The position numbers were made by a program, and so were the translations under genes. DNA of 63,793 nucleotides, the filler included, from Reclinomonas americana ATCC 50394 (lineage: Eukaryota): assembly GCA_048213135.1 (NCBI GenBank). It is 21 parts of 21 records of this genome, joined end to end, with 100 filler letters (N's around TTAATTAATTAA, not from the genome) between each part and the next. Parts side by side here need not be neighbours in the genome. Positions count along the whole stretch, not along the records: positions 30,832 to 37,320 come from AFZH01022133.1; 20 more parts are not named here. The stretch is one strand, 5' to 3'. Under the pieces are notes generated by a model. The model searched no databases. It was not told where the DNA came from and was given only the letters and a program-made list of their open reading frames with translations. Positions 32,170 to 36,988 of the stretch are shown piece by piece (position 1 is the stretch's first letter; every line of letters starts with the position of its first letter).

Positions 32170-35100
32170 ATGTCGGTGTGTTTGTTTGTTCTCTTTCTTC
32201 CCGCCTTCTCTGTGTGCTCACTTCTCTTTGATTGTGCTCAGTTCTCTGTGAATGTGAGTGCGGCGCATGACTCATCGCTGTCAGTGGTGGTGGAGGGCAT
32301 GACGGCCATGTCCACTCTCGCCGACTTGCTGCGCGAGGCCGCACGTTTGTTGTGTGACAAGAGTGGAGATGAGGAGATGGAGGTCGTGGGAGTGGAGAAG
32401 CCGATGCCATTTGACGTTGAATTCATGAGTGCTGCGCCGCTCACGAAACTCGGCATCAACTCATCCACTCATCTTGTTGTCCGTCTGACGGTTGGCGTTG
32501 CGCTGTCGACGAGTGGGAGTGGGAGTGGAAGGTGTGTGCATCTGGATGTGCGTGAATCATCTCTCTGTGCAACGCATGAATCTCACTCATGTGCCGCGCC
32601 CAGCGACCCCGAGCGAGCAACTCGGTTTGTTATCTCGCCCTCGTCAATTTCTCCTCTGCTCGTTTTTTAATTGGCACTGACAGCACTGGATGCACAGCAT
32701 GATCAACTCTCAGCGCATCAACATGGCCTTTGAGGTGGTGGAGGAGGCCGTCCGTCTGCGCTGTCAACACGCACTGGCCCAGTTCTGTCGCAATCATCCC
32801 GACTTTGATGTGCGGGCGTGGACTCCTGACGTGTGGACGCCTCCGTTGTTCTGGCATCCATCGACGATCAAGGCGTGGTACGACGAACACGCGCCACTCC
32901 ACCCCGGTCGAGTCAAGTTGTTTGCGCAGCAGCAGCAGCACATGCTCGACTGGAGGTGTGCTTTTGATGCTGACTCCACCTCCGATCCATCGTGCGACGC
33001 ATTCGACGTGACAGCCTTGGCATCCATGTTGCTGTTTGGTGGCTACATGCTCGATGATGGTCACAAGCTGATGTTGATTGACAATGTCGATGAGCGGAAG
33101 GCGGTGGAACAGTTGCGGGAGGTGCGGAATGAGTTGGTGCACGGTTCGTCGGCATGGACCGAGGCCGCTGTGCGTGAGTATCTCGGTGACCATGGCGTGT
33201 ATCTTGGACTCCTTGGCAAGATGCAGCTGCCTCGCGAAGTGATTGACGGTTTTGCGGCGCGGATTCGAGAGGTGCGCCACCTCGACTTTAGTGTCAGCAC
33301 ATTCGAGGAGCGACTGCATCGACTGGCTGTAGGTGATATGACCTATTATCACGAAGACGAGAGTGTGCGCAAGGACATGCAGATGTATGTGCCACTACTG
33401 TGCTCCCGTGACCGTGACGTCTCATCGGGAGACAAGATGACGGATTTATTGACGGAGGTGGATGCCTTTGTGTCGGACGCAAACACCACCCACCGTGTAC
33501 TGGTGCTTTTCGGCAACAGCGGAGCAGGCAAGACCACCACAATGTCGGTGCTGGCCGAGCGAGCATGGCGACAGTGGCAGTCGAGAGAGAGCAGACGAGT
33601 GCCAGTGCGAGTGCCACTTGGTGCACTGCGCAATGCCGATGAGCGACTGTTGGAGGAGGCATTGGAGCGATTGTCGCCCGAGTTGGGATTCAGTGAGTCG
33701 GATGTGCGACGGTTGAAGGAGGAACCATTGCTGTTGTTGCTTGACGGGTACGATGAATTGTATCGTGGTGTGAATCTGTTTGTCAAGAATCAGCTGGATG
33801 TGTGTCGCGACTTGAAGCTGATTATCACCTGTCGCAGTGATTACGCACTGACGGCACTGGGTGGTGTGACGCAGTTTCGACGGTATTTTGCACCAGCGGA
33901 TGCACGCGGACAGTTGTGCATGCAGCAGCTGATGGAGCGACACATTGCGCCGTTCAACAAGGAGCAGATTGATGAGTATTTTGAGCGACTGGTGCGGGTG
34001 GGCAATGGTGATGACGGTGGAGTGCGATGGTCGACTGCCGAGGAGTACATTCATGCACTGAAGAGTGTACAGGGACTGGATGCACTGGTGTCGATTCCGT
34101 TCCTGTTGGCAGTGGTGGCTCGTGTGTTGCCGCAGTTGGTGGCGAGTGGAGTGCAGCGACTGACTCGATGCGATGTATTTGACCAGTTCATTCGACAGTG
34201 GATTGTGAGGGAGCAGGAGAGGCAGGTACGTCTTGGTGTGGAGCGTGTGCCGAGTGAGGAGACGTGTTTGGCATTCTGTGAGGGACTGGCACGATTGATG
34301 CATGAGAGGAATGTGGTGCGGGTGTCTGTGATAGAGAATCGAGCAGGTGATGACGGGGACGAGGATGACTTTGGTGGTGCGTCACTCGACCATCGGCGAA
34401 TGGAGAACGGACCATTGGACAAATTCCTCGGCCACAAGAACCAGCATGTGCGAGTGTGCTGTCCGATTGTGCGACGGTATGGGACGACGCAGTGGGGATT
34501 CGTGCATCTGTCATTGCTGGAGCACTGTGTGGCGCGGCATGTGTTTGCGTGGGATTCGTGGAATGAGGAGAGGAGGTTGACGGTGCAGGATGTGCAGCAA
34601 CATGTGTTGGGAGTGCGATTGCTAAATGATCGACCATCGTTGGTAGGGCAGATGGTCGAGGTGGTGCGACGTTCTCCTGTGTTGCAAGCGAGACTGTGGG
34701 AGGTGATTGGATTGTCACGGGAGGTGGACGAAGAGCGATTGGTGACAGCAGCCGCGAATGCAGCGATGATGTTGTGTGTGGCACAGGTGTCGTTCAGTGG
34801 TCGCGATCTGTCGGATGTGCGAGTGAGGGGCGCGGATTTGAGGGATGCTGTGATGCACAGGACGGTGTGGAGGGGAGCGGATTTGCGAGGTGTGAATGTG
34901 AGCATGGCGTATGCGAGGGAGGCGGATTTCAGAGGGGCGGATGTGACGGATGTGAAGTGGCCGAGGAAGCCGATGGTGGGCCACACGAGAGCGGTAACCT
35001 GTGTCGCTGTGACACCCGATAGCCAGTACATAGTGAGTGGCAGTTGGGACTCTACTGTACGGGTGTGGTCTGTGACAAGTGGCGAGGAGGTGCGCCGACT

Positions 35101-36988
35101 GGAAGGCCATACGGGTTGGGTGAATGCAGTGACGGTGACACCCGATGGCCAGCACATTGTGAGTGGCAGTTATGACAAGACTGTACGGGTGTGGTCGGTG
35201 GCAAGTGGCGAGGAGGTGCGCCGACTGGAAGGCCACACATATGGGGTGCATGCAGTGTCAGTGACACCCGATGGGCAGCACATTGTAAGTTGCAGTTCGG
35301 ACAATACTGTACGGGTGTGGTCGGTGGCAAGCGGGATGGAGGTTCATCGACTTGAAGGCCACACTGATGCTGTGTATGCAGTGGCAGTGACACCCGATGG
35401 CCAGTACATTGTGAGTGGCAGTTATGACAGGACTGTTCGGGTATGGTCATTGTCAAGTGGAGAAGAGGTGCGTCGACTGAAAGGGCACACGGGTTGGGTG
35501 AATTCTGTCGCCGTCACTCCAGATGGCCAGCTTGTTGTCAGTGGAAGCCAAGACAAGACAGTGCGAGTGTGGTCACTGGCCAATGGAGATGAAGTGCGAC
35601 GGTTCGAGGGACACACTGCCGCAGTATACTCTGTCGCCGTCAATCCAGATGAGCAGCACGTCGTCAGCGGGAGTGCAGACGAGACGGCGCGAGTTTGGTC
35701 ACTGGCGAGTGGCGGAGAGGTGCAGCGGTTGGAGGGACACACTGGTTCGTTGCGGTCAATCACGATTACTCCTGATGGTCAGTACATCGTGAGTGGGAGT
35801 TCAGATATGACAGTACGAATGTGGCCTGTGATAGGCGATGAAGAGGTACGACGGTTGGTTGGACACACCGGATTTGTGCGTTCAGTTGTGCTCACCCACG
35901 ATTGTCAGCATGTAATGAGTGCCGGTACCGACGGCACGGTGAGGATGTGGTCTGTGTCAACAGGCGAGGAACTGTGGAAGGTGGAAGGAATGTCCTCAGC
36001 ATTTACAGTTTCTCCAGATGGTCAATTCGCTGTGAGTGGGAGTATGAGCAGGTCTATTCTGGTATGGTCGTTGGTTCATGGAGAGGAAATGCGACGATTT
36101 GCAGGGCACAATGGTGCTGTATTGTGTGTCGCCGTTACTCCCAACGGTCAGTACGTTGTAAGCGGAGGCCGTGACGGGACTGTGCGAGTGTGGTCGTTGG
36201 CGAGTGGAAAACAGTTGGGGCGGTTGAAAGGACACGCTCATTGGGTGAACTCCGCCGTCACTCCAGATGGTCAGCACATTGTGAGGAGTTATGACTGCAG
36301 AGTGCGAGTGTGGTCATTGGTGAGTGGAGAAGAAGTGCGCCGACTGGAGGGACCTATGATTCTGAAATGTGTCACCTTTACTCCTGATGGTCAGCACATC
36401 GTTAGCGGTGGTTTTGAGGGCACAGTGCGAGTGTGGTCACTGGCTAGCGGCAAGGGGGTGCGCCTGCTGGAGGGGCACACAGGCAGTGTAGAGTCTGTTG
36501 CCGTCACTCCCGATGGTCAACACATCGTAAGTGGGAGTGTGGACAAGACAGTGCGCGTGTGGTCACTGACGAGTGGAGAGGAAGTGCTACGACTGGAGGG
36601 ACACTATGGTGAGGTGCGGTATGTCGCCGTCACTCCTGATGGCCAGCACATTGTGAGTGACAGTGGTCGCGGAGAAGTACGGATATGGTATCTGTCGACT
36701 GGAGAAGAAGTGCCTCTTGATGAGCAGGCGGACCTCGTGAACCCCTCAGCGGATCTTGTGACTTATTTTCGCTGCATGGCGTTCGGTTCTGCGCACACCG
36801 CCCGTGTATCCGGCAGGGCGATCCAACTGATGCGTCGAAGCACTCGCGGGCTTGTGGAACGCATTCTCGGCACTGTCGTGCCCGATTTCACCAACGCGCT
36901 TGGTGCTGTGCGTGGCGTCGGCCTTGAGGTAGTGACCGACGAGGGGGACGGGGGTGACGAAGAGGATGAGGAGGACGAAGAGTCTTAG
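32170..36988 (+). CDS. NLR-like STAND protein: (spliced ubiquitin-like domain)-HEPN-NACHT-type NTPase-pentapeptide repeats-14xWD40
   Basis: Main ORF 32690-36988 (1432 aa): FDVTAL..LREVRNELVH (HEPN RxxxxH), LVLFGNSGAGKTT (Walker A, 33512), LLLLLDGYDEL (Walker B), KLIITCR, PFNKEQI..YF, PFLL, GFVHLSLLEHCVA, A(D/N)L pentapeptides, 14 WD40; upstream phase-0 exons 32170-32175, 32242-32547 and 32604-32624 inferred. Confidence 0.9.

What the first reader, a model, noticed from the sequence alone, without database searches (positions are those of the whole stretch)
32690..36988. NLR-like receptor with an N-terminal HEPN (putative RNase) effector, NACHT-type NTPase and double WD40 propeller
Seen: the ~200 aa before the NTPase contain FDVTALASML..AVEQLREVRNELVH, with an intact RxxxxH motif at 33125-33142. 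Walker A/B, sensor and winged-helix motifs of a NACHT-like STAND follow, then 14 WD40 repeats (two 7-bladed propellers). Established: RxxxxH is the HEPN ribonuclease active site; the FD[IV]T.L..R..RN..H pattern is typical of DZIP3-like HEPNs fused to STAND proteins in invertebrates; NACHT-WD40 proteins (fungal HET-E/HNWD) are non-self sensors that trigger cell death. Inference: a ligand-gated, oligomerisation-activated RNase, i.e. an abortive-infection-like receptor in a unicellular eukaryote.
Basis: partly seen in the sequence, partly recalled or inferred. Interest (0 to 1): 0.88.

Follow-up and report, generated by a model that had tools for sequence, protein, structure and literature searches.

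The report
NLR-like receptor with probable HEPN RNase head
A protist gene encodes an immune-receptor-like switch protein (NACHT NTPase plus two WD40 propellers) whose N-terminal domain carries an RNase-type HEPN motif, but that domain has no detectable relatives, so the RNase reading is likely rather than proven.

Summary
Three elements are solid. NACHT scores above Pfam's cut-off. There are 14 WD40 units, and a confident AlphaFold model folds them as two 7-bladed propellers. The repeats vary mainly at four positions, arranged in the same pattern as in fungal HET-E/HNWD sensors. A 91%-identical fragment exists as an EST of the jakobid Reclinomonas americana, so a close copy is transcribed in a unicellular eukaryote.

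The HEPN call for aa 1-225 is plausible but unproven. The only or best weak hits in Pfam and PADLOC are HEPN models (Swt1, RiboL-PSP, CARF-HEPN, RT-HEPN). All are below threshold and all fall on one helix (aa 131-162, RNELVH). Shuffle and natural-sequence controls show this helix matches better than the bare motif would. Outside it the support is only marginal. No homologue of the domain was found anywhere, AlphaFold failed on it, and no match to the DZIP3 family was returned.

Verdict: this is an NLR-like STAND receptor, with about 60% odds of a divergent Swt1-clade HEPN head. HEPN-NACHT fusions are already known in animals and bacteria, so it is a new variant of a known kind.

The parts
32690..36988 (+). 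Complete intronless ORF, 1432 aa (P0001), stop codon included
   Evidence: An in-frame stop lies 12 nt upstream of the ATG. The coding-type GC1/GC2/GC3 pattern is the same in the N-terminal part (.64/.39/.68) and in NACHT (.65/.40/.62), while the flanks are flat.
32690..33364 (+). N-terminal helical orphan domain, aa 1-225; probable divergent HEPN (Swt1/Abi2-clade-like)
   Evidence: Homology with the Cyanophora relative P0002 starts only at aa ~226. No homologue was found. The AF2 model is low-confidence and all-helical.
33002..33031 (+). FDVTALASML, aa 105-114; possible counterpart of the WDxxxLLxxMW helix of bacterial Swt1-like HEPNs
   Evidence: It aligns only in a forced or global alignment; 7 of 150 flank shuffles reach the real global score.
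33089..33151 (+). HEPN-type catalytic helix DERKAVEQLREVRNELVHGSS, aa 134-154, containing RNELVH (33125-33142)
   Evidence: Pfam HEPN_Swt1 E .019-.067; RiboL-PSP-HEPN E .25. PADLOC CARF_HEPN E .0062 and RT-HEPN E .028. The local Swt1 profile gives 9.1 bits, reached by 1-2 of 2000 shuffles and by 0 of 77 natural motif-bearing windows.
33494..33991 (+). NACHT NTPase domain, aa 269-434. Walker A is at 33512-33538, Walker B DGYDE at 33728-33757, and the TCR sensor-like motif at 33821-33844.
   Evidence: Pfam PF05729 E 8.1e-10, 39.2 bits against a cut-off of 26.7, covering profile positions 1-163 of 167.
33992..34786 (+). Post-NACHT helical region, aa 435-699, presumed to hold the helical and winged-helix parts of the STAND module
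   Evidence: It is colinear with P0002 over the whole stretch (pairwise E 5e-37, 27% identity). No Pfam model matched this part. The winged helix itself was not tested.
34787..34960 (+). Pentapeptide-repeat stretch, aa ~700-757, about 11 pentads
   Evidence: Pfam PF00805 E 1.9e-10, 40.5 bits against a cut-off of 20.2. NCBIfam pentapeptide models gave weak matches. The pentad register is shown. P0002 has the same stretch in the same place.
34946..35827 (+). WD40 propeller 1, repeat units 1-7, aa 753-1046
   Evidence: In the AF2 model pLDDT is ~95-98, with 28 strands counted from the DSSP line.
35828..36691 (+). WD40 propeller 2, repeat units 8-14, aa 1047-1334. Units 9, 11 and 12 are shortened to 39-41 aa.
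   Evidence: In the AF2 model pLDDT is ~57-93, with 28 strands counted from the DSSP line.
36692..36985 (+). C-terminal tail, aa 1335-1432, ending in an acidic run; no known family
   Evidence: No Pfam hit at E<=10. No similar sequence occurs elsewhere in the window.

Best explanation
The gene encodes a cytosolic NLR-like STAND receptor of a free-living protist, in or near the jakobid Reclinomonas. Its layout is an N-terminal effector domain (aa 1-225), a NACHT NTPase switch, a short pentapeptide-repeat beta-helix, two 7-bladed WD40 propellers and an acidic tail. Shown here: the domains, their order, and the concentration of repeat variability at four positions. Those positions are the same ones that fungal HET-E/HNWD repeats use as their recognition surface. 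Inferred: the propellers bind a non-self or danger ligand. This releases autoinhibition, the NACHT module exchanges nucleotide and oligomerises, and the N-terminal domains are brought together. The N-terminal domain is most likely (about 60%) a very divergent HEPN domain of the Swt1/Abi2 clade with an intact R146-N147-x3-H151 site. Induced proximity would then pair HEPN domains into a metal-independent endoRNase. That enzyme would cleave viral or cellular RNA and stop infection or kill the cell, as known HEPN enzymes such as RNase L do.
For: Architecture: NACHT is above the curated cut-off, the pentapeptide repeats are above the cut-off, there are 14 WD40 units, and they fold as two propellers. 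The NACHT-to-pentapeptide module is colinear with a Cyanophora paradoxa NACHT-pentapeptide-WD40 protein that has an unrelated N-terminus, so the head is a swapped module as in other NLRs.

HEPN: in unbiased scans of aa 1-240, Pfam returned two weak hits. The better was HEPN_Swt1 (E .067, falling to .019 on sub-pieces) and the other was ARM_LIN at E .16. RiboL-PSP-HEPN also appeared on a sub-piece. The only two PADLOC hits were CARF_HEPN (E .0062) and RT-HEPN (E .028). All of these align their own RxxxxH to R146/H151.

I built a local profile from 40 bacterial Swt1-like HEPN domains. It scores aa 1-240 at 9.1 bits. That score is reached by 1 of 2000 full shuffles, by 2 of 2000 shuffles keeping RNELVH fixed, and by 2 of 2000 keeping only R, N and H. 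Among 595 natural non-member windows, 2 reach it, and both overlap true HEPN ORFs. Of 77 natural windows containing R[NDHQ]xxxH, none reaches it (maximum 5.1 bits).

A global hhalign score of 14.9 compares with a shuffled-flank mean of 5.1 (sd 4.0); 7 of 150 shuffles reach the real score. Language-model features put HEPN_Swt1 first (0.80 and 0.77) and HEPN_DZIP3 second (0.79), which the tool rates as leads only. N147 is the polar residue expected after the R. In the low-confidence model the motif sits at the end of a helix and runs into a loop, where the HEPN paper places it (PMC3710099, passages).

Precedent: HEPN-NACHT fusions are described in animals and Capsaspora, and N-terminal HEPN plus STAND in bacteria (PMC3710099; PMC9646362; bioRxiv 10.1101/2022.07.19.500537). 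Active Swt1-family HEPNs are reported in Naegleria, another discobid.

Sensor: over 64 repeat units in the window, the four most variable columns are 34, 18, 16 and 36, with 12-17 residue types each. They flank conserved V17 and D35. This is the same pairs-around-a-conserved-site layout, with the same 18-residue spacing, as positively selected codons 7/9/25/27 of HNWD repeats (PMC1805685).

Expression: an EST-derived protein of R. americana is 91% identical (134 of 147 residues) to aa 281-427.
Against: Every HEPN hit is below its curated threshold (13.9-15.7 bits against 27.5), and hhalign gives only 6.8% probability. With the catalytic helix fixed and the rest shuffled, the local score does not fall: 1421 of 2000 shuffles reach or exceed the real score, and 91 of 150 in local hhalign mode. 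The solid signal is therefore one 21-residue helix. The global-alignment signal is marginal, and shuffling also destroys generic helical periodicity. No fold evidence exists: single-sequence AF2 gave pLDDT 35.7 and PDB sequence search found nothing. No homologue of aa 1-250 was found in 1.84 billion representative proteins (the single hit is a low-complexity artefact), nor in the word-based search or the metagenome contigs. Only one upstream Ex3[KR] occurs (E18-R22) and its alignment is ambiguous. NCBIfam gave nothing for the domain. Ligand, oligomerisation, RNase activity and immune role are all untested. The EST does not cover the N-terminal domain.
Confidence: 0.5

Rival explanations
1. The protein is an NLR-like receptor, but aa 1-225 is not a HEPN domain. 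It is a lineage-specific helical domain, either an adaptor for homotypic signalling or a different kind of effector such as a membrane-targeting helical bundle, and RNELVH in an amphipathic helix is a coincidence.
For: All HEPN hits are sub-threshold and restricted to ~29 residues. The flanks add nothing in local mode. The domain has no detectable relatives. The bare motif is common by chance. Language-model scores of 0.77-0.80 are reached by a third of shuffled proteins, according to the tool's own note. N-terminal domains of NLRs are very diverse and often unannotated (PMC4986451, passages).
Against: Independent profiles of four different HEPN families all pick the same helix and register. 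They are the best or only hits in two libraries. Motif-preserving shuffles (2 of 2000) and natural motif-bearing windows (0 of 77) do not reach the score. No other effector or adaptor family gave any hit at E<=10, apart from ARM_LIN at E .06-.16 on aa 18-68.
Confidence: 0.3
2. The head has the HEPN fold but does not act as a nuclease. It binds or senses RNA, or merely mediates dimerisation, as proposed for the HEPN of eukaryotic Swt1 itself and for MtlR-type HEPNs.
For: The HEPN paper states that the Swt1 proper HEPN may be inactive and that some HEPNs are non-catalytic RNA binders (PMC3710099, passages and supplement abstract). The upstream acidic Ex3[KR] element is not clearly identifiable.
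Against: Inactive HEPNs are described as having lost the Rx4-6H motif. Here R, the polar N and H are all intact with the commonest spacing. The same paper infers that HEPN domains keeping the motif are RNases.
Confidence: 0.1
3. The protein is not an anti-pathogen receptor. It is either a conspecific self/non-self (allorecognition or mating-incompatibility) determinant like fungal HET-E/HET-D, or a housekeeping STAND scaffold.
For: The closest functional model for NACHT-WD40 proteins with internally conserved, four-site-variable repeats is fungal heterokaryon incompatibility (PMC1805685). Nothing here identifies a ligand.
Against: A flagellate with no known somatic fusion has no obvious need for heterokaryon incompatibility (my own knowledge, not tested). 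The large expansion of the repeat family (52 further units on 3 other contigs of the window) and the hypervariable sites fit a diversifying recognition repertoire rather than a housekeeping scaffold. Both roles are still compatible with the same molecular mechanism.
Confidence: 0.15
4. The ORF is an artefact: a pseudogene, an assembly chimera across repeats, or bacterial contamination.
For: The window is a concatenation of 21 short contigs, so the assembly is fragmentary and repeat-rich. Three WD40 units are shortened. A bacterial NACHT-pentapeptide protein is a distant relative.
Against: The frame is uninterrupted for 4.3 kb with a uniform coding signature. A eukaryotic EST-derived protein is 91% identical. 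The flanks are non-coding with microsatellites. The closest full-length relative is eukaryotic. The N-terminus/NACHT junction lies in unique, non-repeated sequence.
Confidence: 0.03

Closest known systems
DZIP3/hRUL138-like and CXorf38-type HEPN-NACHT proteins of invertebrates and Capsaspora (PMC3710099 Table 1; pearl oyster PMC9646362; passages read)
   Same: Both have an N-terminal HEPN-type head with Rx4H and N after the R, followed by NACHT and C-terminal repeats. In oyster, more than 50 NACHT proteins have an N-terminal HEPN head, and NACHT proteins can also carry LRR, TPR or WD40 repeats at the C-terminus. They belong to expanded, presumably immune gene families.
   Different: The head here gives no returned match to PF18738, and its best (sub-threshold) match is Swt1-like. 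It has a pentapeptide linker and a double propeller. It comes from a discobid protist, not a holozoan.
Bacterial NACHT (bNACHT) and other STAND antiphage proteins with enzymatic N-terminal effectors, including HEPN (bioRxiv 10.1101/2022.07.19.500537, passages; PMC3710099)
   Same: Both follow the effector-NACHT-sensor logic with HEPN as a predicted RNase effector. Abortive-infection-like outcomes are proposed for these systems.
   Different: This is a eukaryotic gene in a non-coding, microsatellite-rich context. Its sensor is made of WD40 propellers. No close bacterial homologue exists; the best is an NRPS-NACHT-pentapeptide fusion at E 1.5e-6.
Fungal HET-E/HET-D/HNWD NACHT-WD40 family (PMC1805685; PMC4986451; passages)
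   Same: Both combine NACHT with 42-aa WD40 units of unusually high internal similarity. Four hypervariable positions fall as two pairs around conserved sites, with identical 18-residue spacing. The repeat type is shared with other genes of the genome.
   Different: There is no HET domain. Internal identity is 60% on average (38-81%), not up to 100%. 'HEPN' and 'RNase' do not occur in the main text of the fungal NLR survey (0 occurrences each). Positive selection was not formally shown here because synonymous sites are saturated.
Cyanophora paradoxa protein EP00741_P002502 (P0002), the closest full-length relative
   Same: It has the same NACHT-helical-pentapeptide-WD40 order and is colinear over aa 226-762 (E 5e-37, 27% identity).
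   Different: It has a ~740-aa alanine-rich N-terminal region that did not align with aa 1-225 here. Its N-terminal part was not scanned separately.
Bacterial Ava_2192-type proteins: N-terminal Swt1-like HEPN fused to a DUF499 ATPase
   Same: The best-matching HEPN family has an N-terminal HEPN followed by a P-loop NTPase. The catalytic helix ELRDVRNRWAHQ compares with QLREVRNELVHG here. The 2013 paper reports transfer of this family to Naegleria, dictyostelids and Daphnia.
   Different: The NTPase is of a different kind (DUF499/AAA+-like, not NACHT). There are no repeats. Similarity to our domain is confined to one helix.
RNase L / Ire1 KEN domains (HEPN superfamily)
   Same: This is what the protein would work like: a HEPN RNase whose R, following polar residue and H are needed for activity (PMC3710099), switched on by ligand-driven self-association (the activation mode is recalled, not from a call).
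   Different: There is no kinase or pseudokinase and no ankyrin sensor. KEN is a circularly permuted HEPN. No sequence match was found.

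Membership tests
HEPN superfamily (features as defined in PMC3710099, passages) | Rx4-6H motif | tested here: met
   R146-NELV-H151. On its own it is not beyond chance: R....H occurs in 64.6% of shuffles.
HEPN superfamily | Polar residue (N, D or H) immediately after the R | tested here: met
   N147. R[NDHQ]...H occurs in 18.4% of shuffles of aa 1-240.
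HEPN superfamily | [quoted passage not shown] | tested here: inconclusive
   Single-sequence AF2 gave pLDDT 35.7 and only an all-helical secondary structure. No alignment can be built because no homologue was found. No fold search was run, because the tool says a low-confidence model gives meaningless matches.
HEPN superfamily | Motif at the end of helix 3, running into the loop to helix 4 | tested here: inconclusive
   The low-confidence model has a helix at 135-150, a loop at 151-157 and a helix from 158. This is consistent but unreliable.
HEPN superfamily | Upstream conserved acidic residue, typically Ex3[KR] | tested here: inconclusive
   There is one candidate, E18-R22. Its alignment to the VEREL[KF] helix of Swt1-like HEPNs is out of register and scores -2.6 bits.
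HEPN superfamily | Significant profile match to a HEPN family | tested here: not met
   The best scores are 13.9-15.7 bits against a cut-off of 27.5 (Pfam Swt1). PADLOC gives E .0062 and .028. hhalign gives P .0053 and probability 6.8%. These are suggestive (controls) but below every curated threshold.
HEPN superfamily | Conservation of R and H across relatives; RNase activity | not testable with these tools
   No relatives were found. Activity needs a bench assay.
DZIP3/hRUL138-like HEPN (PF18738) | Match to the family profile | tested here: not met
   PF18738 was not returned at E<=10 for aa 1-240 or three sub-pieces (the speed filters may hide matches above about E 0.1). The only trace is a rank-2 language-model lead at 0.79.
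NACHT NTPase (PF05729) | Profile match above the gathering score | tested here: met
   39.2 bits against 26.7, E 8.1e-10, covering profile positions 1-163 of 167.
NACHT NTPase (PF05729) | Walker A GxxxxGK[ST] and Walker B hhhhD[GAS]hDE (the NACHT signature is recalled from Koonin and Aravind 2000, not from a call) | tested here: met
   GNSGAGKTT at aa 275-283 and LLLLLDGYDE at aa 347-356.
NLR / STAND tripartite receptor | N-terminal effector, central NOD and C-terminal superstructure-forming repeats in one polypeptide | tested here: met
   the definition is as in PMC4986451.
NLR / STAND tripartite receptor | Ligand-induced, nucleotide-dependent oligomerisation | not testable with these tools
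   This needs biochemistry.
Fungal HNWD/HET-E family | N-terminal HET domain | tested here: not met
   No HET hit at E<=10.
Fungal HNWD/HET-E family | WD40 units with high internal conservation and four hypervariable surface positions | tested here: met
   Mean identity is 60% at the amino-acid level and 65% at the DNA level over 11 units. Columns 16/18/34/36 are the most variable over 64 units, matching codons 7/9/25/27. Conservation is lower than the fungal 'up to 100%'.
Pentapeptide repeat (PF00805) | Profile match above the gathering score | tested here: met
   40.5 bits against 20.2, three stretches, aa ~713-749.
WD40 double propeller | 14 blades folding as two 7-bladed propellers | tested here: met
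   The AF2 model has pLDDT 85.4, 2 x 28 strands counted from the DSSP line, and a break between units 7 and 8. The relative orientation is uncertain (pTM 0.54).

The most novel reading that the evidence does not exclude
Jakobids, deep-branching free-living flagellates, may run an NLR-based innate immune system armed with an RNase. In this reading a family of NACHT receptors carries a highly diverged HEPN head. Their WD40 sensors diversify at four surface positions by exchanging 42-aa units with a large genomic reservoir of tandem, stand-alone single-propeller genes of the same repeat type. That would be a cassette-donor arrangement functionally parallel to the fungal HNWD system, but in a unicellular discobid. 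It would place RNase-effector NLR immunity and repeat-shuffling receptor diversification well outside animals, plants and fungi.
Probability: 0.15. Interest if true: 0.75.

Novelty: new variant of a known kind. Interest (0 to 1): 0.5.

Why it matters
NLR-type receptors are studied almost only in animals, plants, fungi and, recently, bacteria. A full-text search found no paper that mentions both NACHT and jakobids (0 papers; the library lacks most subscription journals). This gene shows that a discobid protist has a complete effector-NACHT-repeat receptor, and that an EST-derived protein 91% identical to part of it exists in a jakobid. Its repeats show the same four-site variability seen in fungal non-self sensors. 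Its head may be an RNase of the HEPN superfamily, the effector class used by RNase L, Cas13, Csm6 and many abortive-infection systems. If the head is confirmed, it would extend the STAND-plus-HEPN design across another eukaryotic supergroup. It would also give a compact, intronless model for testing whether oligomerisation switches on a HEPN RNase in a eukaryotic NLR. The head is also a good example of a domain that only motif-level evidence can currently place.

Tried and rejected
- **AF2 on aa 1-250, single sequence:** pLDDT 35.7, unusable. No fold search was run on it.
- **Complex prediction, two copies of aa 1-225:** no answer (score 0.00, below the mark; controls not run). It is neither support nor evidence against. 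Earlier hand-ins met a full queue.
- **Homologue searches for the N-terminal domain:** the word-based search found none. The exhaustive phmmer search gave one hit, a low-complexity repeat protein, which I rejected as spurious. The metagenome contig scan found none. The other contigs of the window hold none.
- **Other sequence libraries:** PDB sequence search gave only a prolyl isomerase at E 0.81. NCBIfam gave nothing for aa 1-240.
- **Sequencing runs:** none was listed and no RNA holder was listed, so read laying was not attempted.
- **Upstream ORF 32170-32670 as a possible 5' exon:** it is in a different frame, a stop lies 12 nt before the ATG, it has no Pfam hit and only a weak coding signature, so I did not adopt it.
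- **RNA genes:** Rfam and tRNA scans of the window found none.
- **AF2 of the head using the bacterial HEPN sequences as its alignment:** considered and not run. It would be circular, because the model would inherit the family's fold.
- **DZIP3 membership:** no profile match was returned. The HEPN paper's supplement, which could have shown the DZIP3 motif pattern, is held only as an index page.
- **Per-codon pN/pS:** synonymous differences are saturated, so I make no claim of positive selection.
- one call with a wrong 'of' argument and one with a stop codon in the reference were corrected.

Full report
**What is there.** The window is not one stretch of genome. It is 21 short contigs joined by N44-TTAATTAATTAA-N44 spacers, so the real context of the finding is only 30832-37320. 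Within that contig, 32690-36988 (+) is one uninterrupted frame of 1432 aa, and an in-frame stop lies 12 nt upstream of the ATG. The positional GC pattern typical of coding DNA is the same in the N-terminal part (GC1/2/3 .64/.39/.68) and in the NACHT part (.65/.40/.62), and it is absent from the flanks. The flanks are non-coding and end in microsatellites. No whole genome is held for the window. No sequencing run was listed.

**Domains that are solid.**
- Pfam places NACHT at aa 269-434 (E 8.1e-10, 39.2 bits, cut-off 26.7). Walker A GNSGAGKTT is aa 275-283, Walker B LLLLLDGYDE is aa 347-356, and a TCR sensor-like motif follows.
- A pentapeptide-repeat stretch of about 11 pentads lies at aa ~700-757 (E 1.9e-10, above the cut-off).
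- Pfam counts 14 WD40 stretches. I delimited 14 units, aa 753-1334, of which 11 are exactly 42 aa.
- An AlphaFold2 model of aa 745-1345, using an alignment of the window's own WD40 paralogues and P0002 (10 rows), has mean pLDDT 85.4. It has 2 x 28 strands (my count from the DSSP line, including one short two-residue strand in each half) and a single low-confidence break at aa 1049-1054, between units 7 and 8. So "two 7-bladed propellers" holds. The orientation of the two propellers to each other is uncertain (pTM 0.54).
- The last 98 aa match nothing.

**Relatives.** The NACHT-to-pentapeptide module has only distant relatives of near full length. Two proteins pass E<=0.001 among 7999 scored candidates. 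One is a Cyanophora paradoxa protein with the same NACHT-pentapeptide-WD40 order (pairwise E 5e-37, 27% identity, colinear from aa ~226 to 762). The other is a bacterial NRPS-NACHT-pentapeptide fusion. Homology with the Cyanophora protein begins only at aa ~226, so aa 1-225 is a separate, swapped-in head, as is usual for NLRs. Among shorter proteins, one hit stands out (1 of 8000 scored candidates). It is a 178-aa EST-derived protein of the jakobid Reclinomonas americana in EukProt, 134 of 147 residues (91%) identical to aa 281-427. A close copy of this gene is therefore transcribed in a free-living unicellular eukaryote. The EST does not reach the N-terminal domain.

**The HEPN question: evidence for.** The bare motif is worthless as evidence: R....H occurs in 64.6% and R[NDHQ]...H in 18.4% of 2000 shuffles of aa 1-240. 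What counts is the context.

In unbiased library scans of aa 1-240, Pfam returned two weak hits. The better was HEPN_Swt1 (E .067.029 and .019 on sub-pieces; 13.9-15.7 bits against a cut-off of 27.5). The other was ARM_LIN at E .16. RiboL-PSP-HEPN appeared at E .25 on one sub-piece. The only two PADLOC hits were CARF_HEPN (E .0062) and RT-associated HEPN (E .028). All of them cover aa 131-162 and align their own RxxxxH to R146/H151. A protein-language-model search put HEPN_Swt1 first (0.80; 0.77 on aa 96-215) and HEPN_DZIP3 second (0.79). The tool rates scores under 0.9 as leads only.

**The HEPN question: calibration.** I collected real Swt1-like HEPN domains. PF18731 is found above its cut-off in 38 of 401 sampled genomes of one bacterial phylum. 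The prevailing type is an N-terminal HEPN fused to a DUF499 ATPase. I built a local profile from 40 of these domains. The protist N-terminus scores 9.1 bits, through DERKAVEQLREVRNELVHGSS against aerslvseLrevRNkwAHqep. That score is reached by:
- 1 of 2000 full shuffles;
- 2 of 2000 shuffles with RNELVH held in place;
- 2 of 2000 shuffles with only R, N and H held;
- 2 of 595 natural non-member windows, both overlapping real HEPN ORFs;
- 0 of 77 natural windows that contain an R[NDHQ]xxxH (maximum 5.1 bits).

The helix is therefore HEPN-like beyond its motif.

**The HEPN question: evidence against.** Holding the helix fixed and shuffling everything else does not lower the local score. In one search, 1421 of 2000 such shuffles reach or exceed the real score, and, 91 of 150 do so in local hhalign mode. 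hhalign gives only 6.8% probability (P .0053, 29 columns). A global alignment is colinear: helix 1, then FDVTALASML against WDxxxLLxxMW, then the catalytic helix, then the following helix. It scores 14.9 against a shuffled-flank mean of 5.1 (sd 4.0), and 7 of 150 shuffles reach it. That is a marginal result, and generic helicity could also produce it.

Fold evidence is missing. Single-sequence AlphaFold gave pLDDT 35.7. PDB sequence search found nothing. The homodimer job returned no answer and is reported only as tried. There are no homologues of aa 1-250 in 1.84 billion representative proteins (the one hit is a low-complexity artefact), in the word-based search, in metagenome contigs or on the other contigs of the window.

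PF18738 (DZIP3) was never returned. The paper's alignments that could show the recalled DZIP3 pattern are not held. If the head is a HEPN, it is nearer the Swt1/Abi2 clade. I put the HEPN fold at about 60% and an active RNase at about 45-50%.

**The sensor.** The 42-aa units are far more alike than ordinary WD40 repeats: mean 60% amino-acid and 65% DNA identity over 11 units, with maxima of 81% and 88%. The same repeat type fills other contigs of the window, with 52 further units at 40% or more identity to the consensus. Most of these sit in tandem genes for ~360-395-aa single propellers with a conserved C-terminal tail.

Over all 64 units, the four most variable columns are 34, 18, 16 and 36 (3.1-3.9 bits, 12-17 residue types, pN/pS 0.9-1.3). 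They flank conserved V17 (0.29) and D35 (0.08). In fungal HNWD/HET-E repeats the positively selected codons are 7, 9, 25 and 27, in pairs around conserved 8 and 26, on the propeller's interaction surface (PMC1805685, passages). The layout and the 18-residue spacing are identical. Synonymous sites are saturated here, so I claim hypervariability, not demonstrated positive selection.

**How it most likely works.** Shown: the parts, their order, and the recognition-surface-like variability. Inferred from what is established for STAND/NLR proteins (PMC4986451 and PMC7159879, passages): the propellers hold the protein off until a ligand binds. The NACHT module then oligomerises on nucleotide exchange, and the N-terminal heads are concentrated. 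If the head is a HEPN, pairing would form the metal-independent RNase site in which R, the following polar residue and H act (PMC3710099, passages). Viral or host RNA would be cut. The pentapeptide beta-helix may be a rigid spacer or part of the autoinhibitory interface, which is pure inference.

**Comparison and novelty.** HEPN-NACHT fusions are in print. DZIP3-like HEPN is fused to NACHT, with lineage-specific expansions in Nematostella, oyster and the unicellular Capsaspora. CXorf38-type HEPN is fused to NACHT in cephalochordates and cnidarians. Bacteria have N-terminal HEPN plus STAND proteins (PMC3710099). Pearl oyster has more than 50 NACHT proteins with an N-terminal HEPN, and its NACHT proteins can carry C-terminal WD40 (PMC9646362). 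HEPN is listed among bacterial NACHT effectors (bioRxiv 10.1101/2022.07.19.500537). Active Swt1-family HEPNs are reported in Naegleria, a fellow discobid. 'HEPN' does not occur in the main text of the fungal NLR survey (0 occurrences).

What is new here is the lineage, the architecture and the head. On lineage, 0 papers hold both 'NACHT' and 'jakobid' (the library lacks most subscription journals). The architecture adds a pentapeptide linker and a double propeller. The head is extremely divergent. The HNWD-like repeat variability alongside a reservoir of stand-alone propeller genes is also new. This is a new variant of a known kind, of moderate interest.

Noticed in passing
whole window; spacers e.g. 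30732-30831 and 37321-37420: The window is a concatenation of 21 contigs (1.1-7.6 kb) joined by N44 + TTAATTAATTAA + N44. Neighbouring 'context' beyond 30832-37320 is therefore not physical linkage.
   Followed up: yes
333-6861 (-), 8120-9208 (-), 53751-56433 (+): There are at least eight ORFs of ~360-440 aa, arranged in tandem on three contigs. Each is a single WD40 propeller of the same 42-aa repeat type as the NLR. Most start at or near an [AT]P[LV]FLC[KQ]HVL first blade (the two on the third contig start differently) and end in a conserved ~65-aa tail (...CLPELVLRCFIVEEAEVVVHRCLVDPQLHL) that has no Pfam match. They may be a repeat reservoir for the NLR sensors, or an independent family.
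   Followed up: partly
32170-32670 (+): A 166-aa ORF lies just upstream of the gene in another frame. It has no Pfam hit and a weak coding signature (GC1/2/3 .58/.47/.57). It is unclear whether it is a uORF, a small gene or noise.
   Followed up: partly
P0005 against window ~33462-33530: The first 23 residues of the Reclinomonas EST-derived protein do not align in frame. By eye they resemble the translation of another frame of the window (ORF 33462..33716). This suggests a frameshift in the EST read or a real indel in that copy.
   Followed up: no
aa 1089-1250 (nt 35954-36439): Units 9, 11 and 12 of propeller 2 are shortened (39-41 aa), and two of them lack the GH dipeptide. This propeller also has lower model confidence. 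It may be degenerating, or it may reflect assembly collapse within repeats.
   Followed up: no
loci L002-L031 (bacterial genomes): An N-terminal Swt1-like HEPN fused to a DUF499 ATPase is common in one bacterial phylum: 38 of 401 sampled genomes have a PF18731 match above the cut-off. Several ~200-400-aa stand-alone or differently fused versions also occur.
   Followed up: partly
aa 718-723 (nt 34841-34858): A second R[NDHQ]xxxH (RDAVMH) lies inside the pentapeptide repeats and draws no HEPN hit. It serves as an internal reminder that the motif alone does not attract HEPN profiles.
   Followed up: yes
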